Shown here piece after piece: positions 2,739-21,290 of a stretch of DNA of 64,000 nucleotides. Both the position numbers and the translations under genes were made by a program. Each line of letters begins with the position of its first letter. The stretch's first letter is position 1. The notes beneath the pieces are model-generated. The model did not search any database. It saw nothing but the letters and a program-made list of their open reading frames with translations, and was not told the origin of the DNA. Origin of the DNA: Escherichia phage SUT_E1620; the sequence record OQ939939; one strand, written 5' to 3'.

Positions 2739-4148
2739 ATGTCTTTACAACTATTACGTAATACTCGAATCTTCGTGTCTACGGTTAAGACTGGTCACGA
2801 TAAGACCAACACGCAAGAGATTCTAGTTCAAGATGATATTTCTTGGGGTCAGGACAGTAACTCAACCGATATTACTGTTAACGAAGCTGGTCCGCGTCCA
2901 ACTCGTGGTTCAAAACGTTTCAACGACTCCCTGAACGCAGCTGAGTGGAGTTTCTCTACTTACATCCTGCCTTACTTAGATAAGACTACTAGTAAGCAGA
3001 TCGTTCCGGACTACATGCTGTGGCATGCTCTTTCTAGTGGTAAGCCTATCAACCTAGATGGTGATACAGGTGCTCACACTAACGAAACTAACTTCATGGT
3101 TAACTTTAAGGATAACGCATACCACGAGCTGGCAATGCTACATATTTACATCCTTACTGATAAAGCATGGAGCTACATCGATTCCTGTCAGATCAACCAG
3201 GCTGAAGTAAACGTTGATATCGAAGATATCGGTCGTGTAACTTGGTCAGGTAATGGTAACCAGCTGATCCCTCTGGACGCTGCTCCCTTTGATCCTGATA
3301 CTGTGGGTATTGATGATGAAACTTACATGACTATCCAGGGTTCTTACATCAAGAACAAACTGACTATCCTCAAAATTAAGGATATGGATACTGGTAAGGC
3401 ATATGACATTCCGATCACTGGTGGTAGCTTTACAATTAACAACAACATCACATATCTGACTCCTAACGTCATGTCCCGTGTTAACATCCCAATCGGTTCA
3501 TTTACTGGTGCATTCGAATTAACTGGTTCTCTGACCGCTTATCTTAACGATAAAGCTCTAGGTTCTATGGATCTGTATAAAGATCTGATTAAGACCCTGA
3601 AGGTAGTTAACCGTTTCGAAATCGCTCTAGTACTTGGCGGTGAATATGATGATGAGCGCCCAGCCGCTGTTCTAGTTGCTAAGCAAGCTCACGTTAACAT
3701 CCCAACTATTGAGACTGACGATGTACTTGGTACTTCTGTAGAGTTCAAAGCAATTCCTACTGATCTGGATACTGGTGATGAAGGTTATCTTGGTTTCTCT
3801 AATAAGTACACCAAAGCTACTATTGCAAATCTGATTGCAACTGGTGACGGTGGTAAAGCAGCTCCAGTAAAAGTAACAGGTATTACTGTTAAATCTGCGG
3901 GTGATGCAACTTCCGTCGAGAATAGTGCAACTCTTCAGATGACTGTAGATGTTTTACCTGCTGAAGCTACTAATAAGGAAGTAACTTGGTCTATTTCCTC
4001 TGGTACTGCTGCCACTATTGATGCAACTTCTGGGTTACTAACCGCTGATGCTTCTAAGACTGGTGCAGTTACTGTGAAAGCTGTAGCTAAAGATGGTTCT
4101 GGTGTAGAAGGTACTAAGAGCATTACAGTTACTGCTTCTGGTGGCTAA
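2739..4148 (+). CDS. tail tube protein pb6 with C-terminal Ig-like (Big_2-type) domain
   Basis: 469 aa; C-terminal Ser/Thr/Ala/Val-rich beta-sandwich-like segment (TWSISSGTAATIDATSG...); SD AGGAG upstream; synteny with T5 pb6. Confidence 0.75.
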   Translation: MSLQLLRNTRIFVSTVKTGHDKTNTQEILVQDDISWGQDSNSTDITVNEAGPRPTRGSKRFNDSLNAAEWSFSTYILPYLDKTTSKQIVPDYMLWHALSSGKPINLDGDTGAHTNETNFMVNFKDNAYHELAMLHIYILTDKAWSYIDSCQINQAEVNVDIEDIGRVTWSGNGNQLIPLDAAPFDPDTVGIDDETYMTIQGSYIKNKLTILKIKDMDTGKAYDIPITGGSFTINNNITYLTPNVMSRVNIPIGSFTGAFELTGSLTAYLNDKALGSMDLYKDLIKTLKVVNRFEIALVLGGEYDDERPAAVLVAKQAHVNIPTIETDDVLGTSVEFKAIPTDLDTGDEGYLGFSNKYTKATIANLIATGDGGKAAPVKVTGITVKSAGDATSVENSATLQMTVDVLPAEATNKEVTWSISSGTAATIDATSGLLTADASKTGAVTVKAVAKDGSGVEGTKSITVTASGG

Positions 4149-4152
4149 TTAA

Positions 4153-5052
4153 ATGTACTACTCTCTAATGAGGGAGTCAAAAGTTATAGTTGAGTACGAT
4201 GGCAGGGCTTATCATTTTGATGCCCTGTCAAATTACGATATCAATACGTCCTATGAGGAATTTAAAACTCTTCGTAGGACTATACATCGTAGAACCAACT
4301 ATGCTGACTCTATTATTAATGCACAAACTCCATCTTCAATATCACTGGCTATAAATTTTAGTAATACCCTTACTGAAGCTAACTTCTTTGAATGGATGGG
4401 CTTTGACCGAGAGGGTAACACATTCTTACTACCACTTTATAGTACAAATATTGAGCCAACAATGTTTAATATATACATAGTTAATAAAGATAATAACTGT
4501 GTATACTTTGAGAATTGCTATGTATCTACTGTAGACTTTTCTCTAGATAAAAGCGTTCCTATCCTAAACGTAGGAATTGAATCTGGTAAGTTCTCTGAGG
4601 TGTCTACTTTTACTCCTGCTGGTTCTATTGTTCAGGGTGAAGTTATGTCATATAGTCCTCCTAGAGTATCTACCAACAGTAATGTTTTACCAGCTCTTTT
4701 ATCCGCTTCTATGTCATTCCAGCAACAATGTTCTTGGAGAGAAGATAAAAGCGTATTTGACATAAACAAAATATATAATAATAAGAGAGCTTATGTTAAT
4801 GAAATGAATGCTTCGGCAACAATTGCATTTTACTACACCAAGCGATTTGCTGGTGATATATTTTATAATATTGAACCCGAAACTGACATACCATTAACCA
4901 TCAGAAATGAACATATTTCGATTGATTTTCCTTCAGCACGTATAACAAAACGCCTACAATTCTCGGATATATACAGAGTTGAATGGGATGTAATCCCTAC
5001 TGCAGACTCTGATCCGGTAAGAATCGACTTCTTTGGAGAAATAAAGAAATGA
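4153..5052 (+). CDS. tail protein p140-like
   Basis: 299 aa; AT-rich codon usage; position after tail tube gene as in T5. Confidence 0.45.
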   Translation: MYYSLMRESKVIVEYDGRAYHFDALSNYDINTSYEEFKTLRRTIHRRTNYADSIINAQTPSSISLAINFSNTLTEANFFEWMGFDREGNTFLLPLYSTNIEPTMFNIYIVNKDNNCVYFENCYVSTVDFSLDKSVPILNVGIESGKFSEVSTFTPAGSIVQGEVMSYSPPRVSTNSNVLPALLSASMSFQQQCSWREDKSVFDINKIYNNKRAYVNEMNASATIAFYYTKRFAGDIFYNIEPETDIPLTIRNEHISIDFPSARITKRLQFSDIYRVEWDVIPTADSDPVRIDFFGEIKK

Positions 5053-15277: not shown

Positions 15278-15700
15278 ATGAGTACAGAAAACCGAGTTAT
15301 TGATATTGTTGTTGATGAAAAAGTACCTTATGGTCTTATCATGCAATTTATGGATGTTGATGATAGCGTATATCCACCAACAGAAGTTCCTGTTAACTTA
15401 ACCGGATATTCACTCCGAGGAACTATTAAATCTAGCTTAGACGAGAACGCCGAGGTTCTAGCTAACTTTAAAACTCGTGTTATTGATGCTGCTCAAGGTG
15501 CTGCTGCAATTAGTCTTTCTGTTGCAGACGTTACTAATATTGGTGAAAAAGCATCTAAAGAACGTGATAAGTATAACCCAAGACAACGTTTTGCTGGTTA
15601 TTATGATATCCTAATGACTCGTGATGTAATTGGCTCTGAAGTCAGTTCTTTCCGTATTATGGAAGGTAAAGTATACATCAGCGATGGAGTAACTCAATAA
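15278..15700 (+). CDS. collar protein (T5 p132-like)
   Basis: 140 aa; between pb4 and tail-fibre gene as in T5. Confidence 0.5.
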
Positions 15701-18700
15701 TGGCACTTAAAACTAAAATTATTGTACAGCAGATTCTGAACATAGATGACACTACAACTACTGCTAGTAAGTATCCTAAGTATACAGTAGTTTTAGGTAA
15801 TTCTATCAGTTCTATTACTGCTGGTGAACTAACAGCGGCTGTTGAAGCCGCTGCAGAGTCTGCTGCTGCTGCTAAAGATTCTGAAATAGCAGCTAAAGAC
15901 TCTGAAAATAAAGCTAAAGATTCGGAAATTCAAGCGGGTATTCATGCTGGTGCTTCTGAGGCTTCAGCAACCCAGTCTGCTGCTTCTGCTGCTGAATCTG
16001 AAAGACAAGCTAACTTATCTCAAGGTAGTGCGGAAAACTCTGCTGCTTCTGCTTTAGAATCTAAGAATTTTAAAGATGCTTCGGAACTTGCTGCTCAAAA
16101 TGCAGAGCAGAGTAAGATTTTAGCAGAGCAAGCTCAAAGAGCGGCAGAAGCTGCCCAGTCTGGTGCTCAAGCTTCTGAAAATAAAGCATCAGCATTTGCT
16201 ACACAAGCTGCTGCATCTTCAGCTTCCGCAGGAGATTTTGCTGCAGCCGCTAAACAATCTGAATTAAATGCTAAAACTTCTGAAACCAATGCCGCAACAT
16301 CAGAAGTGGAAGCGGAAACCCAAGCTGAAACTGCTACTACTGAGGCAAATCGTGCTAAGGCTGAAGCCGATCGCGCAGCTCAGATTGTAGATAGTAAGTT
16401 AGATAAAGAAGATATATCTGGCTTTATCAAAGTCTACAAGACTAAAGAAGAAGCGGACGCCGACGTTAGTAGCCGCGTACTAGGTGAAAAGATCCTAGTG
16501 TGGAACCAAACTGACTCAAAATATGGATGGTATAAAGTAGCTGGAACTGCTGAGGCTCCAGTATTAGAGTTAGTAGAGACAGAGCAAAAGCTAGTTTCTA
16601 TTAATAACGTTCGTGCAGATGACGCAGGTAACGTACAGATTACTCTTCCTGGTGGTAATCCTTCCTTATGGTTGGGTGAAGTTACTTGGTTCCCTTATGA
16701 CAAAGATTCAGGTGTTGGCTATCCTGGTGTTCTCCCTGCTGATGGCCGCGAAGTCCTTCGTGTAGACTATCCAGATACGTGGGAGGCTATCGAAGCCGGT
16801 CTGATTCCTTCTGTTACTGAAGAACAATGGCAAGCTGGTGCAACTCTCTATTTCTCCACTGGTAATGGTACTACTACTTTCCGTCTACCTGATATGATGC
16901 AGGGGCAGGCATTCCGTGCTGCTGCAAAAGGCGAGGAAAACGCTGGCAATATTAAAGAGCAAATTCCGTACATTACTATGATTAACGGTAAAGCTCCTGC
17001 TGACGATGGTACAATTACTTTAGGTAATGCTGCAGATAAAAACGTATGGAATGGTGTTGATGGTGAGGTATTACTAAGAGGTGCTTTTGGTCTTGGTGGT
17101 ACTGGTTTAATCCTTAATGAACCTGATGCCGTTTCCTTCTTTAAAGCAATGCGTGCTTTTGGTTCTGGATACTATAGAAATGACTCTGAAAGTAACCCAG
17201 TGATTCCTAAGTATTCTGCTGGATTCTACTCCAAAACTGCCGACACTCATACTTTTATCTGTTCTGCTTATGGTAATGGTGTTACTTTCGTAGCTACTAT
17301 AAATGATGCATTATTAGATGGAGAAAATCCTACTGTACATACAAATATTCTTTATGGTACAGCAAATAAACCTGATCTGAATACCGATACTCAAGGAGTT
17401 TTAGGAGTAGAGAAGGGCGGTACTGGTGCTACTACACAGAAAGGTGCTAGACTAAATCTGGATACTCCTGTAGGCAGCAGAGCTATTGGAATGCCTAATA
17501 ACTCTGATGTACTAGCTTTCATGAAATCTTCCGCAGAAAGCGGATATTATTCCTCTGGTAATATAGTTACTGGAGTTCCAGAAACTGCAGGATGGTATAT
17601 GTTCGATCTCCATGTACATGGTAAGAATGCTGCGGGAGAAATGGAGTATGGTAATGTATACTGTACAACAAGTGCTGGTGCTATTTGGTACACCTTAATG
17701 GAGGTTGGTGTATGGCAGCCATGGAGACGTTTGACCACAGAACATGGTATTATTCCTATTACTTCAGGGGGTACTGGTACAAATAATGCAAATGACGCAA
17801 GAATAAATCTAGGTCTTGGTCCTATAAATGCACCTACTTTTAGTGGTATGACTCTTCAGGGTACTAATGAAACTACTTCAGGTATAGCGGTTTTTAGTAA
17901 TAGAAATACGGAAGGGACTCAACTTTCCTATTCTAGAATGTACCATGAAATTCAGAGTGGTGTTGGTAAAACTACTATTCAGACTACAAGAGAGGGCGGG
18001 GCGACTAACTATTTCCAAATTGATGAGTATGGTAATATTGGGAATATTAACTCAATTATTGCATATGGATATATGGGATTAGGTGCTGCTAATGCTATGG
18101 GAAATGCCTCTATTGCGATTGGTGACTCTGACTCTGGGCTAAAATGGAATAGTGATGGTAACATAAGTACCATAGCAGATGGTGTAAAAATAGCCACATG
18201 GACACCTCATGGATTTTATACACATAAAATAATAAGCTCAGATGTTGCTAATACCGAAAGAGGGATGTATGTAAACGGGGTTAGGACTACCGGTGCCTCC
18301 GCTCTTGTAGCTGGGGTTGTAGAAGCTGGATCTCATGTTGGTTGGAGAGATAGAGCTTCAGGTATGCTTGTTGAATTGAATACTAGAGGAGCTGCTGCCA
18401 ATATCTGGAAAGCAACTAGATGGGGTGATCAACATGCTGGTGCATCTGACATCGTTATTTATGATGATGGATCTCCTTATTATAGAACTCTTGTAGGCGG
18501 TGGTGAATTTGGGTTCAATGGCCTTGGACAAGCTACCTGTACTTCTTGGATTAGTACATCTGATATTAGGCTTAAGGCACAGCTAAAAGAGATAGTATCT
18601 GCTAAAGATAAGGTAAAATCCCTACAGGGGTACACTTATTTTAAACGTAATAGTTTGGTTGAAGATGAGCATTCTTTTTATTGTGAAGAGGCAGGATTAA

Positions 18701-18915
18701 TCGCACAGGATGTTCAAACTGTACTACCGGAAGCTGTATATAAAATAGCTAACTCAGATCTTCTCGGTGTTAATTACTCTGGTGTTACCGCATTATTGGC
18801 TAACGCAGTAAAAGAGATGTTGGCGGATGCGGAGGCTCAGGAAGCTCGTATCAGTAATCTAGAGGAAGAACTGGCAGAGTTAAAAGCTCTAGTAGCCACT
18901 CTGGTAAATAAGTAA
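15700..18915 (+). CDS. ltfA: L-shaped tail fibre protein LtfA with C-terminal intramolecular chaperone (S74-type) domain
   Basis: 1071 aa; N-terminal Ala/Ser/Glu-rich helical repeats; GGTGA...AR(L/I)NL motifs; C-terminal TSDIRLK...GLIAQDVQ autoproteolytic chaperone signature. Confidence 0.8.
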   Translation: MALKTKIIVQQILNIDDTTTTASKYPKYTVVLGNSISSITAGELTAAVEAAAESAAAAKDSEIAAKDSENKAKDSEIQAGIHAGASEASATQSAASAAESERQANLSQGSAENSAASALESKNFKDASELAAQNAEQSKILAEQAQRAAEAAQSGAQASENKASAFATQAAASSASAGDFAAAAKQSELNAKTSETNAATSEVEAETQAETATTEANRAKAEADRAAQIVDSKLDKEDISGFIKVYKTKEEADADVSSRVLGEKILVWNQTDSKYGWYKVAGTAEAPVLELVETEQKLVSINNVRADDAGNVQITLPGGNPSLWLGEVTWFPYDKDSGVGYPGVLPADGREVLRVDYPDTWEAIEAGLIPSVTEEQWQAGATLYFSTGNGTTTFRLPDMMQGQAFRAAAKGEENAGNIKEQIPYITMINGKAPADDGTITLGNAADKNVWNGVDGEVLLRGAFGLGGTGLILNEPDAVSFFKAMRAFGSGYYRNDSESNPVIPKYSAGFYSKTADTHTFICSAYGNGVTFVATINDALLDGENPTVHTNILYGTANKPDLNTDTQGVLGVEKGGTGATTQKGARLNLDTPVGSRAIGMPNNSDVLAFMKSSAESGYYSSGNIVTGVPETAGWYMFDLHVHGKNAAGEMEYGNVYCTTSAGAIWYTLMEVGVWQPWRRLTTEHGIIPITSGGTGTNNANDARINLGLGPINAPTFSGMTLQGTNETTSGIAVFSNRNTEGTQLSYSRMYHEIQSGVGKTTIQTTREGGATNYFQIDEYGNIGNINSIIAYGYMGLGAANAMGNASIAIGDSDSGLKWNSDGNISTIADGVKIATWTPHGFYTHKIISSDVANTERGMYVNGVRTTGASALVAGVVEAGSHVGWRDRASGMLVELNTRGAAANIWKATRWGDQHAGASDIVIYDDGSPYYRTLVGGGEFGFNGLGQATCTSWISTSDIRLKAQLKEIVSAKDKVKSLQGYTYFKRNSLVEDEHSFYCEEAGLIAQDVQTVLPEAVYKIANSDLLGVNYSGVTALLANAVKEMLADAEAQEARISNLEEELAELKALVATLVNK

Positions 18916-18929
18916 GAGTATAGGGGAGT

Positions 18930-18953
18930 AATTCTCCCCTATTTACTAAGGAA
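18930..18953 (+). terminator. weak terminator/attenuator between ltfA and ltfB
   Basis: hairpin AGGGGAG-TAAT-TCTCCCCT with weak U tract (ATTTACT). Confidence 0.35.
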
Positions 18954-18958
18954 ATACT

Positions 18959-21253
18959 ATGTCACGTAATTTAATGCCTAAATCTGGCGCAATGGCGCCA
19001 TACATTGTAGTTAATAGAGACGCTGCTGTTGCTGGTGTTTTCTCTATTGACGGAGAAGCTGGCGCTGTTGTACTTACTTCTAAGTACTTACAAATCTCTA
19101 AATATAATTTAGATCAGCAAGCTCTAGCTACTCGTCTTACTGGAATAGATAGCTCTATTCAAAGTAATACTGAAGCTATTGGAAATATTAATACTGCAAT
19201 TGGTAGTATTAATAGTAGTCTAAGTGCCAAAGCGGCTAAGGGTGCTAATAATGATATTACAGAATTAAATGCACTTACTAAGGCTATTACTGTATCTCAA
19301 GGTGGTACAGGTGCTACTTCTCCAGATGGAGCACGTTTAGCACTAGAATTAAATCATCTCACTAAGTCAACAGATGTCTCATATATGGGATCTCCTGATG
19401 GTTCAAAGTTACTTTATATTAGTAATGAGGGGGCTTGGGGAGTTACTGCTGAGGGTGGTGGCACTAACTATGCACTACCTATTACTCAAGGTGGTACAGG
19501 TGCTTTAAGTGCAGCAGAGGCACTAGTTAAGCTAATGGATGGTAAACCATTACCATTAGCTGCAGATGGGCAAGCTCCTTATGATGCTGTAACTGTAAGG
19601 CAACTATCTAATATTTCTGGTGGCGGAAATGCTAGCATGAGTGGAGTTATGAATAACTTCATAGGTGCTGTTGAGTGGTTTAATGGTAACCGTACTAAGC
19701 TACCTGCCGGCTATATACCAGCAGACGGTCAATTAGAAAGCCGTACCGATCCTAAGACTAGGGATCTATGGGCGGCAGTTTCAGGTGGATTATTCGTAAG
19801 TGTTAGTGATACAGAGTGGATAACTAACTCCTACGGTCAGGATTACCAAAAAACAGGGAATAGAGGTGCATATTCTACAGGAGATGGCTCTACTAACTTC
19901 CGTGTACCTGATTTAAACGGCGTTAGAAGAAATGGGGATACTATGGATGGAATTCCTTTTGCAGGATATGATACCCCTTATGCAGCATTCCTTCGTGGTG
20001 ACGGTGGTGGTAGTATTAATGGAGTATTTGCCTCTGGGGCGCTAAATATGAGTGCTGCCCCTAATATAATAGGTAACTTTTCTGTAAGAGTACCAAATAA
20101 CCATGGAATGTACGCTACTGGTATTTTCTCGGGTATAAATCATACAGGATGGCCTGATGCTCCAGATGCTAGTTATTCTGGAGGAAGTGGAACAGCGGAT
20201 TTTGTAGATACTCAGAAGTATGGATATTCTCTAAATGCTGCAGCAGGTAGCCCAGTATATGGAAGAGATGGTACATCAGAGGTACGCCCTACTGCTGTTA
20301 CTGGTCTTTGGATTATCCGTGCTAACGGTTCTTTTAACGCTGCTGGTTCACAGTATCATGTTATTAATGGAGACTCTACACGCCCTGCTGATGGAACTAC
20401 TACTTATGGTGGCTTTGCGTATAGTGACTACAGAATAGGGGAAACAGTTAATCACTCAGCTTTAATAGTAAGTGCCAAAAGATTTGGTAATCCTTATAGT
20501 GTTGCTGTTCTTCAGTCCTATAATGATGAGACAGGGGATCTTGCCAACCTAGAGGTACAATCTAATGGTGTTGTTAACTTACCTACTTCGATTAATAATA
20601 AATCCTGGATACAAGCTTTTGGTGCCAACGGCCTGCATTTAGATGCTGCTACTACTGCTCAAGATCTACATACTATGCCTGGTGGAGGTTGTGGTGTATC
20701 TCAAGCAGAGAGAAATGCTATCGAGTTGAATAATAACCCAGGTGCTGTAGGTTCTGGTGGTTATGTTAACTGGCTGCAAGGATGGTGGTATGACGATAGG
20801 TTCCAGTTCGGTGCTATTCGTAGTGGTTCTACTGTATTGGATGCTGTAGCCTTATCTACATATTCTAATGCATTGGGGTTAAAACAGTGGTTCTTTAGGG
20901 CTAATGATGGTAGGATTGCTTCCACTGCAGGTACTATTGCTATTGAAGGTTCAGATATCAAACTTAAGGAGAATATAGTTAGAGCACCAGAAGGGGCCTT
21001 AGATAGAATAACTAAAATCACCCCTAGAGAGTTTGACTGGAAAGCTGGAGGTAGGCATGATAGAGGATATATTGCTCAGGAATTACGTGATGTAGATCCT
21101 ACCTATGTATATTCATCAACTGTTGGGGAAGGAGAAGAGGTATTAAACGTTAGTACATCTGCTTTGATTTCTGACTTAATAGCTGCTGTTACAACTCTTA
21201 AACAAGAGTTGGATTCTGCCAAATTAGAAATTAAAAAGCTAAAAGCTAAATAA
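18959..21253 (+). CDS. ltfB: second L-shaped tail fibre protein LtfB with C-terminal intramolecular chaperone domain
   Basis: 764 aa; QGGTGA...AR motifs (x2); C-terminal GSDIKLK...GYIAQELRDVD chaperone signature; SD AAGGA upstream. Confidence 0.75.
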   Translation: MSRNLMPKSGAMAPYIVVNRDAAVAGVFSIDGEAGAVVLTSKYLQISKYNLDQQALATRLTGIDSSIQSNTEAIGNINTAIGSINSSLSAKAAKGANNDITELNALTKAITVSQGGTGATSPDGARLALELNHLTKSTDVSYMGSPDGSKLLYISNEGAWGVTAEGGGTNYALPITQGGTGALSAAEALVKLMDGKPLPLAADGQAPYDAVTVRQLSNISGGGNASMSGVMNNFIGAVEWFNGNRTKLPAGYIPADGQLESRTDPKTRDLWAAVSGGLFVSVSDTEWITNSYGQDYQKTGNRGAYSTGDGSTNFRVPDLNGVRRNGDTMDGIPFAGYDTPYAAFLRGDGGGSINGVFASGALNMSAAPNIIGNFSVRVPNNHGMYATGIFSGINHTGWPDAPDASYSGGSGTADFVDTQKYGYSLNAAAGSPVYGRDGTSEVRPTAVTGLWIIRANGSFNAAGSQYHVINGDSTRPADGTTTYGGFAYSDYRIGETVNHSALIVSAKRFGNPYSVAVLQSYNDETGDLANLEVQSNGVVNLPTSINNKSWIQAFGANGLHLDAATTAQDLHTMPGGGCGVSQAERNAIELNNNPGAVGSGGYVNWLQGWWYDDRFQFGAIRSGSTVLDAVALSTYSNALGLKQWFFRANDGRIASTAGTIAIEGSDIKLKENIVRAPEGALDRITKITPREFDWKAGGRHDRGYIAQELRDVDPTYVYSSTVGEGEEVLNVSTSALISDLIAAVTTLKQELDSAKLEIKKLKAK

Positions 21254-21290
21254 AATAAAACCCCAGTGGACAATCCACTGGGGTTTTTTA
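21252..21290. terminator. bidirectional intrinsic terminator at the boundary of convergent late (+) and early (-) units
   Basis: A-rich tract, hairpin CCCCAGTGGA-CAA-TCCACTGGGG, then T6. Confidence 0.8.

What the first reader, a model, noticed from the sequence alone, without database searches (positions are those of the whole stretch)
15700..21253. Two tandem tail-fibre genes, each with its own C-terminal intramolecular chaperone
T5 itself, as I recall, has one long ltf gene. Here there are a 1071-aa and a 764-aa fibre gene in tandem, both ending in an S74-type autoproteolytic chaperone module (SDIRLK / SDIKLK ... GxIAQ). Both carry repeated (Q/S)GGTG(A/T)...AR(L/I)NL motifs: at least three in the first and two in the second. 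This fits a branched fibre architecture. The distal receptor-binding parts (about residues 300-880 of the first, 200-640 of the second) are the likely host-range determinants, and the GGTGA-type motifs may mark attachment or branching points.
Basis: partly seen in the sequence, partly recalled or inferred. Interest (0 to 1): 0.45.

Follow-up and report, generated by a model that had tools for sequence, protein, structure and literature searches.

The report
T5-like LtfA/LtfB branched tail-fibre locus
These are the two lateral tail-fibre genes (ltfA and ltfB) of a Salmonella phage related to T5, an arrangement already described for phage DT57C, so the finding is real but ordinary.

Summary
Window 15700-18915 (1071 aa) and 18959-21253 (764 aa) are intact tandem genes, and both end in a Peptidase_S74 intramolecular chaperone with a Ser-x4-Lys dyad (S954/K959 and S665/K670).

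The window is 100% identical to phage vB_SabS_Sds2 / PYC03 (Epseptimavirus). The locus is the known ltfC-ltfA-ltfB cassette of T5-like phages such as DT57C:
- LtfC is 95% identical to DT57C LtfC.
- LtfA 1-433 is 80% identical to DT57C LtfA. This stretch holds the collar-insertion N-terminus, the coiled coil and the phiEco32-gp14/SU10-gp12-like domain proposed to hold LtfB.
- LtfB is a full-length homologue (36% identity). Its N-terminal 45 residues are conserved and phiEco32-gp15-like.

The branched-fibre reading is therefore supported by homology to a genetically characterised system.

The GGTG motifs are real and non-random. There are two canonical copies in each protein, and the third copy in LtfA is a look-alike. 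They do not mark branching points. They sit at the recurrent breakpoints of homology, in both protein and DNA comparisons, where fibre modules are exchanged, including exchange between the LtfA and LtfB scaffolds.

The variable, probably receptor-binding, parts are LtfA 436-953 and LtfB 197-664, with a hot spot at LtfB 280-448.

Novelty is low.

The parts
15278..15700 (+). ltfC, the collar protein that anchors the lateral fibres (140 aa). Its stop codon overlaps the ltfA start (TAATG).
   Evidence: PF23926 LtfC, E 1.9e-15. 95% identical to DT57C LtfC. The sequence at the junction is shown.
15700..18915 (+). ltfA, lateral tail fibre protein A (1071 aa precursor; predicted mature form 1-953).
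   Evidence: ORF. Residues 1-433 are 80% identical to DT57C LtfA / PDB 8hqz. PHROG tail-fibre families match.
15700..16392 (+). LtfA aa 1-231. Residues 1-50 are identical to the DT57C strands that insert into the LtfC ring. They are followed by an Ala/Ser/Glu-rich trimeric coiled coil with 21-nt (heptad) periodic DNA repeats.
   Evidence: 46.5% identical to T5 pb1 1-215. Repeat family D1. The structural role is taken from PMC10713586.
16393..17022 (+). LtfA aa 232-441, the proposed LtfB-docking (branch) domain. It is like phiEco32 gp14 / SU10 gp12 and contains a collar-like segment at 342-398.
   Evidence: SU10 gp12 (7z47) residues 248-460, E 6e-39. Absent from T5 pb1. Co-occurs with the LtfB N-terminus. 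The docking role was proposed in PMC4728585.
17023..17394 (+). LtfA aa 442-565, knob module 1. It contains the GAFGLGGTG look-alike at residue 466.
   Evidence: 40% identical to T5 pb1 386-487. phrog_10316 matches 439-559. AF2 gives a helix plus 5 strands at pLDDT about 60-76.
17395..17463 (+). LtfA aa 566-588, GGTG junction 1 (GVLGVEKGGTGATTQKGARLNLD).
   Evidence: 50 of 177 protein HSPs start at 561-570. A DNA homology breakpoint falls at locus nt 1730-1737 in 8 of 11 relatives.
17464..17751 (+). LtfA aa 589-684, knob module 2. It ends in GVWQPWRRL.
   Evidence: The module 568-678 is shared as a unit by 30 homologues. The AF2 model is poor here.
17752..17817 (+). LtfA aa 685-706, GGTG junction 2 (IPITSGGTGTNNANDARINLGL).
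   Evidence: HSP starts at 685 and ends at 701-706. phrog_14572 begins at 688.
17818..18558 (+). LtfA aa 707-953, the distal tip and probable receptor-binding part.
   Evidence: AF2 pLDDT 85-93 for residues 726-947. Foldseek hits are Mu gpS fibre 5yvq, S16 gp37 tip 6f45 (33% identity, TM 0.66) and R2 pyocin fibre. Homologous to the LtfB of phages S124, GSP044 and Spc35 and to a Tlsvirus protein.
18559..18915 (+). LtfA aa 954-1071 plus stop, the intramolecular chaperone. Predicted cleavage is T953|S954, with the S954/K959 dyad.
   Evidence: PF13884. S16 gp37 6f45, E 1e-12. Aligns with T5 pb1 S1264-K1269. S, D and K are at least 90% conserved among 71 homologues.
18920..18942 (.). Conserved stem-loop in the 43-nt ltfA-ltfB spacer (ATAGGGGAG-TAATT-CTCCCCTAT), followed by the RBS AAGGAAA.
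   Evidence: RNA fold -17.2 kcal/mol, z -2.7. Nearly invariant in 10 phages, and DT57C has a different hairpin at the same place. Scored only as a weak terminator.
18959..21253 (+). ltfB, lateral tail fibre protein B (764 aa precursor; predicted mature form 1-664). Annotated 'hypothetical protein' in the RefSeq record.
   Evidence: ORF. Annotation. 36% identical over its full length to DT57C LtfB, E 3e-110. phrog_6921 tail fibre matches 1-764, E 6e-136.
18959..19093 (+). LtfB aa 1-45, the conserved N-terminal peptide proposed to dock on LtfA.
   Evidence: About 91% identical to DT57C. 67-73% identical to phiEco32 and other Kuravirus distal fibre proteins over residues 1-45. AF2 pLDDT is below 50, as expected for a segment that orders only on a partner.
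19286..19546 (+). LtfB aa 110-196: GGTG junction (110-130), a 5-stranded bead (131-172), then a second GGTG junction (173-196). The two motifs are encoded by an exact 20-nt repeat spaced 189 nt apart.
   Evidence: AF2 gives a loop plus short helix at 122-128 and 185-192, and strands at 134-176 with pLDDT 75-79. Repeat D14 at 19296-19315 / 19485-19504. DNA breakpoint at locus nt 3619-3633 in DT57C, S124, GSP044 and Spc35. 57 of 167 HSPs start at residue 197.
19547..20950 (+). LtfB aa 197-664, the distal part that probably binds the receptor. It includes a tail-collar-like domain at about 231-325.
   Evidence: Weak PF07484 Collar hit. Homologous to DT57C LtfA 445-824, E 1.8e-35. AF2 beta domains.
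19796..20302 (+). LtfB aa 280-448, a replaceable hypervariable segment.
   Evidence: In PRF-SP13, NBEco001, DaisyDussoix and HZ_ZJUN2, DNA homology stops at locus nt 4095 and resumes at 4601-4604. AF2 confidence is low for 325-340 and 382-420.
20951..21253 (+). LtfB aa 665-764 plus stop, the intramolecular chaperone. Predicted cleavage is G664|S665, with the S665/K670 dyad.
21257..21287 (.). Bidirectional intrinsic terminator that closes the late tail operon, facing the convergent dut operon.
   Evidence: 14-bp stem with T-runs on both strands. Annotated as a terminator on both strands in phage Sepoy.

Best explanation
This is the ltfC-ltfA-ltfB lateral (L-shaped) tail-fibre cassette of a T5-like Salmonella phage (Epseptimavirus Sds2/PYC03). 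It is a member of the two-protein fibre type characterised in coliphage DT57C.

Inferred mechanism, by homology:
1. Trimers of LtfA insert their N-terminal strands into the dodecameric LtfC collar at the tail tip, giving three fibres per virion.
2. LtfA extends as a coiled coil (about aa 40-230).
3. LtfA presents a globular domain (aa 232-441) onto which the N-terminal roughly 45 residues of an LtfB trimer dock. This produces a fibre with two arms.
4. Each arm continues through small knob or bead modules joined by GGTG-x6-AR-x-NL-x-L junctions (a loop plus a short helix) to its own receptor-binding tip.
5. Each arm is folded by its own C-terminal S74 intramolecular chaperone, which then removes itself. 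Predicted cuts are T953|S954 in LtfA and G664|S665 in LtfB.
6. The two tips probably recognise two different surface glycans, most likely O-antigens, which widens the range of hosts the phage can adsorb to.

The GGTG junctions are module boundaries at which fibre cassettes have repeatedly been exchanged, even between the LtfA and LtfB positions. They are not the branch point.
For: Shown here:
- Identity and synteny. The window is 100% identical to Sds2/PYC03. The gene order pb3-pb4-ltfC-ltfA-ltfB-terminator-dut matches DT57C and 10 other T5-like phages.
- Conservation. LtfC is 95% identical, LtfA 1-433 is 80% identical (residues 1-50 identical), and LtfB is 36% identical over its full length with about 91% over the first 47 residues.
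- Docking domain. It matches SU10 gp12 at E 6e-39 and is missing from single-fibre T5 pb1.
- Co-occurrence. The docking domain is found in 246 phage records and the LtfB N-terminus in 235, with near-identical genus profiles. In IMG/VR loci the pair co-occurs in 11 of 11 and 10 of 11 cases. One of these is an 82-kb metagenomic phage that lacks LtfC.
- Fibre-like distal LtfA. Hits to Mu gpS, S16 gp37 and pyocin fibres.
- Junction role of GGTG. Protein HSP ends pile up at LtfA 568, 588, 678, 685 and 706 and at LtfB 181-200. DNA breakpoints fall at the GGTG573 codons in 8 of 11 relatives and at the GGTG115 codons in 4 of 11.
- Cross-scaffold exchange. Sds2 LtfA 531-1071 is 44.6% identical to S124 LtfB 67-598 (E 8e-140). 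Sds2 LtfB 105-764 matches DT57C LtfA 445-1075 (E 3e-45).
- Independent assortment. LtfA is 99.3% but LtfB 81.5% identical to PRF-SP13. LtfB is 98.7% identical to SpoonbillGilly, while LtfA is only 81% and 62% identical over its two aligned stretches.

From the literature:
- Genetics in DT57C and DT571/2 show that both proteins carry receptor specificity and that LtfB depends on LtfA (PMC4728585).
- Cryo-EM shows LtfA in the LtfC collar and no separate LtfB site on the tail (PMC10713586).
Against: - Nothing here shows physically that LtfB binds LtfA. The interface has never been resolved, even in DT57C.
- The SU10 paper describes the homologous pair as proximal and distal halves of one kinked fibre, not as a branch (PMC9509320).
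- One T5-like phage (locus L029) keeps the docking domain but has no ltfB. The domain can therefore exist without a partner.
- The AF2 models are monomers of obligate trimers and have only moderate overall confidence (pLDDT 68 and 71).
- The receptors of this phage are unknown, and no paper on Sds2 was found.
Confidence: 0.85

Rival explanations
1. Serial rather than branched fibre. LtfB would be the distal half-fibre that continues LtfA end to end through an elbow, as gp12 and gp13 are described for podovirus SU10. There would then be one arm and one effective tip.
For: LtfA 232-440 is homologous to SU10 gp12 and LtfB is homologous to the SU7/SU10 distal protein. The SU10 paper calls them proximal and distal and saw a single elbow (PMC9509320).
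Against: LtfA continues for about 510 residues beyond the docking domain, with knobs, a confidently modelled fibre tip and its own chaperone. The same LtfA distal module serves as the distal part of LtfB in phage S124, so it is a complete tip in its own right. In DT57C and DT571/2 the LtfA C-terminal region determines O-antigen specificity independently of LtfB (PMC4728585).
Confidence: 0.08
2. One reading: the GGTG(A)...AR.NL motifs are the sites where the second fibre attaches or branches off.
For: In DT57C LtfA, L029, L026 and SU7 gp11, a canonical motif sits immediately after the docking domain at about aa 431-492. Unbranched T5 pb1 has no motif at all.
Against: In this phage the position right after the docking domain is not a canonical motif, and the canonical copies lie 130-250 residues further out. 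LtfB, the attached partner, carries two copies of its own. 88 of 120 LtfB homologues have none, though many of those share only the distal part of LtfB. The number of copies varies from 1 to 4 or more between orthologues, with a 63-68-aa period, like beads on a shaft. Homology breakpoints fall on the motifs.
Confidence: 0.05
3. LtfB attaches to the tail independently of LtfA, or is an alternative fibre used in place of LtfA in part of the virion population.
For: Weak low-contour densities near the DT57C tail tip were tentatively assigned to LtfB folded back on the tail (PMC10713586).
Against: LtfB has no similarity to the LtfC-binding N-terminus. Its N-terminus co-occurs with the LtfA docking domain even in phages with entirely different tails, namely Kuravirus relatives and L026, which lacks LtfC. 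No robust LtfB density was found on the DT57C tail core (PMC10713586).
Confidence: 0.02

Closest known systems
LtfA/LtfB branched L-shaped tail fibres of coliphages DT57C and DT571/2 (Golomidova et al. 2016, PMC4728585; Ayala et al. 2023, PMC10713586, PDB 8hqz)
   Same: Same gene order (pb4-ltfC-ltfA-ltfB-dut). LtfC is 95% identical. LtfA 1-433 is 80% identical, covering the collar-insertion strands, the coiled coil and the gp14-like docking domain. The LtfB N-terminus is about 91% identical and the protein is homologous over its full length. Both proteins end in PF13884 chaperones.
   Different: The distal 60% of LtfA is unrelated to that of DT57C. Here it is two knobs and a gp37/Mu-S-like tip, and there are no 19-aa tandem repeats. 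In module terms the arms are swapped: this LtfB's distal part resembles the DT57C LtfA distal part. There are no long DNA repeats between ltfA and ltfB, so the A-B fusion deletions seen in DT57C relatives are less likely here. The host is Salmonella and the receptors are unknown.
Single Ltf (pb1) of phage T5, with its C-terminal intramolecular chaperone (PDB 4uw7/4uw8)
   Different: T5 has one fibre gene, no docking domain, no GGTG motifs and no second arm.
Kuravirus (phiEco32 gp14/gp15; SU10 gp12/gp13; SU7 gp11/gp12) long tail fibre pair
   Same: The docking domain matches at 42-44% identity and E about 1e-40. The partner N-terminal 45 residues match at 67-73%. The two genes are adjacent in the same order, and the GGTG junctions are present (4 in SU7 gp11).
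   Different: These are podoviruses. The proximal protein's N-terminus binds a T7-like adaptor rather than an LtfC collar. The fibre is described as proximal plus distal with an elbow (PMC9509320). SU7 gp11, the LtfA-like partner, shows no chaperone-type Ser-x4-Lys segment in my alignment.
Peptidase S74 / intramolecular chaperone domains (K1F endosialidase 3gw6, GA-1 gp12 3gud, S16 gp37 6f45, MyRF ICA 7dc3)
   Same: Pfam membership, the Ser-x4-Lys dyad, and the predicted fold.
   Different: Cleavage has not been demonstrated for these two proteins.

Membership tests
DT57C-type two-protein (LtfA/LtfB) lateral tail fibre | Gene order: straight-fibre pb4, ltfC, ltfA, ltfB, then a terminator facing the dut operon. 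| tested here: met
   compared with DT57C and 10 other T5-like phages.
DT57C-type two-protein (LtfA/LtfB) lateral tail fibre | An LtfC collar protein, and an LtfA N-terminus that inserts into it. | tested here: met
   LtfC is 95% identical and hits PF23926. LtfA residues 1-50 are identical to the DT57C chain modelled in 8hqz.
DT57C-type two-protein (LtfA/LtfB) lateral tail fibre | A phiEco32-gp14-like region in LtfA (DT57C aa 223-471), proposed to hold LtfB. | tested here: met
   80% identical to DT57C. Matches SU10 gp12 248-460 at E 6e-39. Absent from T5 pb1.
DT57C-type two-protein (LtfA/LtfB) lateral tail fibre | An LtfB N-terminal stretch of about 45 residues like phiEco32 gp15, with no similarity to T5 tail-binding sequences. 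| tested here: met
   phiEco32 matches residues 1-45 at 66.7% identity. LtfB has no match to T5 pb1.
DT57C-type two-protein (LtfA/LtfB) lateral tail fibre | LtfB is physically carried on LtfA, giving a branched morphology. | not testable with these tools
   Only indirect evidence is available: co-occurrence of the two elements and a disordered LtfB N-terminus in the monomer model.
DT57C-type two-protein (LtfA/LtfB) lateral tail fibre | Each protein has its own receptor specificity (two O-antigen types). | not testable with these tools
   The distal parts are unrelated to each other and assort independently among phages. This is consistent with the feature but is not a functional test.
Peptidase S74 intramolecular chaperone (PF13884) | Profile match above Pfam's gathering score at the C-terminus. 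| tested here: met
   42 and 43.8 bits against a 22-bit cutoff.
Peptidase S74 intramolecular chaperone (PF13884) | A Ser nucleophile at the cleavage site and a Lys five residues downstream. | tested here: met
   S954/K959 and S665/K670 align with T5 pb1 S1264/K1269. The Ser is at least 90% conserved among homologues.
Peptidase S74 intramolecular chaperone (PF13884) | The chaperone fold. | tested here: met
Peptidase S74 intramolecular chaperone (PF13884) | Autoproteolytic release after trimer folding. | not testable with these tools
   Needs SDS-PAGE or mass spectrometry of virion proteins or recombinant protein.

The most novel reading that the evidence does not exclude
The GGTG-x6-AR-x-NL-x-L element, with its 60-120-aa bead, may be a portable splice junction for tail fibres. 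As a short loop-plus-helix trimer joint, it would be structurally neutral enough that any module placed after it folds correctly. Its constrained codons (GGN GGN ACN GGN GCN; an exact 20-nt repeat in ltfB) would supply microhomology for recombination. A second conserved island would act with it: the last 17 codons of ltfA, the spacer hairpin and ltfB codons 1-120. Together these would explain how receptor-binding cassettes move between the LtfA and LtfB positions and between siphovirus, podovirus and T1-like fibres. They would also give defined cut-points for engineering host range.
Probability: 0.4. Interest if true: 0.35.

Novelty: already known. Interest (0 to 1): 0.17.

Why it matters
The lateral fibres decide which O-antigen-shielded strains a T5-like phage can adsorb to. 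Recognising that this Salmonella phage has a two-armed LtfA/LtfB fibre corrects the 'hypothetical protein' label on ltfB in the reference record. It also points to the segments to compare or swap when predicting or engineering host range: LtfA 436-953 and LtfB 197-664, especially LtfB 280-448. The architecture itself has been known since 2016. The only modest addition here is the mapping of exchange breakpoints onto the GGTG junctions, together with the evidence that distal cassettes move between the A and B scaffolds.

Tried and rejected
- Pfam on the isolated motif, bead, tip, docking and LtfB N-terminal segments at E up to 5 gave nothing meaningful. The hits were a weak Collar match and chance PD40 and YadA_stalk matches.
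- NCBIfam returned no relevant family.
- Literature searches found no description of the motif. 'NLGL' plus 'tail fiber' returned irrelevant hits. 'Sds2' plus 'Epseptimavirus' found no paper. The phiM1 paper behind PDB 8vbx says nothing about the motif region.
- Foldseek on the monomer LtfB model recognised only the chaperone. The trimeric shaft and tip domains have no significant PDB match as monomers.
- IMG/VR scans with single-protein queries returned almost only already-sequenced isolates, 11 loci each. The independent co-occurrence test is therefore small.
- I looked for long direct repeats between ltfA and ltfB, which cause A-B fusion deletions in DT57C relatives. None exceeds about 27 nt, so I dropped that idea for this phage.
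- I considered that ltfB might be a decaying duplicate of ltfA and rejected it. The two share only a collar-like stretch (30% identity over 126 aa) and the chaperone. ltfB is intact, has an RBS, and is 98-99% conserved in phages Sepoy and SpoonbillGilly.
- The promoter scan found no more sites than shuffled sequence gives (27 against 23.8), so no internal promoter is claimed.
Full report
**What is there**

The two ORFs are exactly as reported: 15700-18915 (+, 1071 aa) and 18959-21253 (+, 764 aa). They are separated by 43 nt and preceded by a 140-aa ORF (15278-15700) whose stop codon overlaps the first start. The 5.55-kb stretch is 100% identical to Phage vB_SabS_Sds2 and Salmonella phage vB_SenS_PYC03 (Demerecviridae, Epseptimavirus). 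In that record the first gene is annotated 'L-shaped tail fiber' and the second 'hypothetical protein'. 301 phage records match at the DNA level, mostly Salmonella and Escherichia T5-like phages.

**Check of the observation**

Both proteins hit Pfam Peptidase_S74 (PF13884) at the C-terminus, well above the gathering score (42 and 43.8 bits against 22). Both contain the quoted strings: STSDIRLK...AGLIAQ in the first and EGSDIKLK...GYIAQ in the second.

- A local alignment places S954/K959 and S665/K670 on T5 pb1 S1264/K1269, the known cleavage dyad.
- The Ser is at least 90% conserved among 121 and 71 homologues.
- GGTG occurs 3 and 2 times against 0.08 and 0.10 expected. The extended motif occurs 2 and 2 times against about 0.004 expected.
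- The copy at LtfA 466 (GAFGLGGTGLILNEPDAVSFF) is a look-alike inside a different knob motif. LtfA therefore has two canonical copies (573, 690), not three. LtfB has two (115, 178), and the second is degenerate in its helix half.
- T5 does have a single 1396-aa ltf gene.

**What it is**

The preceding ORF is LtfC (PF23926; 95% identical to DT57C LtfC). DT57C has the same gene order: pb3, pb4, ltfC, ltfA (1076 aa), ltfB (788 aa), then the convergent dut operon.

- Protein 1 is 80% identical to DT57C LtfA over residues 1-433, with residues 1-50 identical. After that it is unrelated.
- Protein 2 aligns with DT57C LtfB over its full length (36%, E 3e-110), with about 91% identity over the first 47 residues.
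- PHROGs places both in tail-fibre families.
- Ten further T5-like phages have the same cassette.

The literature describes this arrangement. Golomidova et al. 2016 showed genetically that DT57C and DT571/2 lateral fibres consist of LtfA and LtfB, each with a receptor-recognition region and a pfam13884 chaperone. LtfB depends on LtfA, probably through the phiEco32 gp14-like region of LtfA and the gp15-like N-terminus of LtfB (PMC4728585). Ayala et al. 2023 resolved the LtfA N-terminus threaded into a dodecameric LtfC collar and found no separate LtfB site on the tail core (PMC10713586). The BASEL paper notes that Markadamsvirinae lateral fibres are made of one large polypeptide or of two or more proteins (PMC8594841).

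**Anatomy of LtfA**

- Residues 1-231: collar-insertion strands and coiled coil. They are homologous to T5 pb1 1-215 and have 21-nt periodic DNA repeats.
- Residues 232-441: docking domain. It matches SU10 gp12 248-460 at E 6e-39, is absent from T5 pb1, and contains a collar-like stretch that is a paralogue of LtfB 222-334.
- Residues 442-565: knob 1, which matches T5 pb1 386-487.
- Residues 566-588: GGTG junction.
- Residues 589-684: knob 2.
- Residues 685-706: GGTG junction.
- Residues 707-953: tip.
- Residues 954-1071: chaperone.

The AF2 model of residues 435-1071 has a mean pLDDT of 70.6. It is confident for the tip (85-93) and the chaperone (80-90). Foldseek finds Mu gpS fibre 5yvq (E 5.5e-5), S16 gp37 tip 6f45 (33% identity, TM 0.66), R2 pyocin fibre and T4 gp34. 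The chaperone region matches S16 gp37 by sequence at E 1e-12.

**Anatomy of LtfB**

- Residues 1-45: conserved peptide, with pLDDT below 50 in the monomer model.
- Residues 53-91: helix.
- Residues 110-130: GGTG junction, modelled as a loop plus a helix at 122-128.
- Residues 131-172: five-stranded bead (pLDDT 75-79).
- Residues 173-196: second junction, with a helix at 185-192.
- Residues 197-664: distal beta-rich part with a tail-collar-like domain.
- Residues 665-764: chaperone (pLDDT 85-92).

**Where the branch probably is**

tblastn with the docking domain alone finds 246 phage records. The first 60 residues of LtfB find 235. The genus profiles are almost identical: Escherichia 112 and 111, Salmonella 95 and 91, Shigella 5 and 5, Klebsiella 3 and 3. 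Both sets include the unrelated Kuravirus-type podoviruses.

In IMG/VR loci, 11 of 11 found through the LtfB N-terminus have the docking domain about 2 kb upstream. One of these is an 82-kb metagenomic phage (L026) that lacks LtfC and the T5-type LtfA N-terminus. Ten of 11 found through the docking domain have the LtfB N-terminus downstream. The exception, L029, has a single 1083-aa Ltf with the docking domain and no ltfB.

This co-inheritance across different tail types supports the published docking-pair model. It is inference, not a demonstration of binding.

**What the GGTG motifs are**

They coincide with the boundaries of exchangeable modules.

- Protein HSP ends against 120 LtfB homologues cluster at starts of 191-200 (57 of 167) and ends of 181-200 (21), then at about 493 and at the chaperone start.
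- Against 97 LtfA-distal homologues, starts cluster at 561-570 (50 of 177) and 681-690, and ends at 671-680, 581-590 and 701-706. Another boundary at 796 is not linked to a motif.
- At the DNA level, homology to 8 of 11 relatives stops at locus nt 1730-1737, which are the GGTG573 codons. Homology to DT57C, S124, GSP044 and Spc35 stops at nt 3619-3633, the GGTG115 codons.
- Modules cross scaffolds. Sds2 LtfA 531-1071 is 44.6% identical to the LtfB of phage S124 (E 8e-140). Sds2 LtfB 105-764 matches DT57C LtfA 445-1075. Part of the LtfA tip occurs in a Tlsvirus (T1-like) protein.
- Copy number and spacing vary between orthologues, from 1 to 4 copies or more with a 63-68-aa period.
- 88 of 120 LtfB homologues have none. 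Many of these share only the distal part of LtfB.
- The motif also occurs four times in SU7 gp11 and in the phiM1 podovirus fibre gp47.
- The two LtfB copies are encoded by an exact 20-nt repeat 189 nt apart.

I conclude that the motifs are inter-module joints and recombination junctions, not branch points. In DT57C, L029, L026 and SU7 one canonical copy does sit just after the docking domain, which is probably why the association looked plausible.

**Host-range determinants**

The ltfA and ltfB alleles assort independently. LtfA is 99.3% identical to PRF-SP13 while LtfB is only 81.5% identical. LtfB is 98.7% identical to SpoonbillGilly, while LtfA is only 81% and 62% identical over its two aligned stretches.

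Variability in LtfA begins at about residue 436, not 300. In LtfB it begins at about 197. A cleanly replaced segment at 280-448 (locus nt 4096-4603) is seen in four phages.

**Other conserved features**

A conserved island runs from the last 17 codons of ltfA through the spacer to ltfB codon 120 (locus nt 3164-3619). The spacer holds a stable hairpin (-17.2 kcal/mol, z -2.7) that is nearly invariant in ten phages. DTT57C has a different hairpin in the same place. A strong bidirectional terminator follows ltfB.

**Verdict**

The finding is real and correctly recognised as a two-fibre locus with two chaperones. It is the known LtfA/LtfB system in an already deposited genome. The branch-point idea for the GGTG motifs is not supported. 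The junction reading is the only mildly new point. Physical branching, cleavage and receptor specificity remain untested for this phage.

Noticed in passing
window 18920-18942 (spacer 18916-18958): A stable hairpin between ltfA and ltfB is nearly invariant across 10 T5-like phages, even where the flanking chaperone and LtfB alleles differ. DT57C has a different hairpin at the same spot. It could be an attenuator, an RNA-stability element, or part of a conserved recombination linker that runs from ltfA codon 1055 to ltfB codon 120.
   Followed up: partly
L029 6305-9556 (IMGVR_UViG_2974606035_000001, 109 kb T5-like contig): A T5-like phage with a single 1083-aa Ltf that keeps the LtfB-docking domain (86% identical) but has no ltfB. 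About 490 nt of non-coding DNA lies before the terminator. It looks like a recent loss of ltfB, or an A-B fusion like the DT530(1) and DT571/2-ABF mutants.
   Followed up: partly
L026 4092-8650 (IMGVR_UViG_3300013307_000002, 82 kb metagenomic contig): A phage that is neither T5-like nor Kuravirus-like carries the docking-domain protein (687 aa), a 265-aa ORF and an LtfB-like protein (549 aa, no chaperone), but has no LtfC. This is a third genomic context for the docking pair.
   Followed up: partly
One search hit H29, PQ773600.1 23468-27190: A 41-kb record named 'Corynebacterium phage CPphiVTCCBPA_418' contains a T5-like ltfC-ltfA-ltfB region at 79% DNA identity. This is implausible for a Corynebacterium phage and suggests contamination or a mislabelled host.
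   Followed up: no
One search hit H111, OL539462.1 23227-24282: The region of Citrobacter phage BlueShadow that is homologous to the LtfA tip and chaperone (49% identity over residues 696-1051) is annotated 'putative DNA primase'. This is probably a mis-annotation.
   Followed up: no
window 15846-16286: The LtfA coiled-coil region is encoded by degenerate 21-nt (7-codon) tandem repeats of the type AAKDSE(I/N). This is a heptad-periodic DNA repeat that could allow the shaft length to vary.
   Followed up: no
window 19547-19600 (LtfB aa 197-214): The segment PLPLAADGQAPYDAVTVRQL resembles the 'DAVNxxQL' neck motif of trimeric autotransporter adhesins (weak YadA_stalk hit, E 0.1). It is the most frequent start point of homology among LtfB relatives. 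Many of those relatives precede it with a different junction, GxNxDITxLxxLxGPLxLGGD.
   Followed up: partly
window 21257-21287 and the strand switch at about 21.3 kb: A perfect 14-bp bidirectional terminator separates the late tail operon (+ strand) from the convergent dut / flap-endonuclease / D14 / SbcCD operon (- strand). The sign of the GC skew flips at the same place.
   Followed up: no
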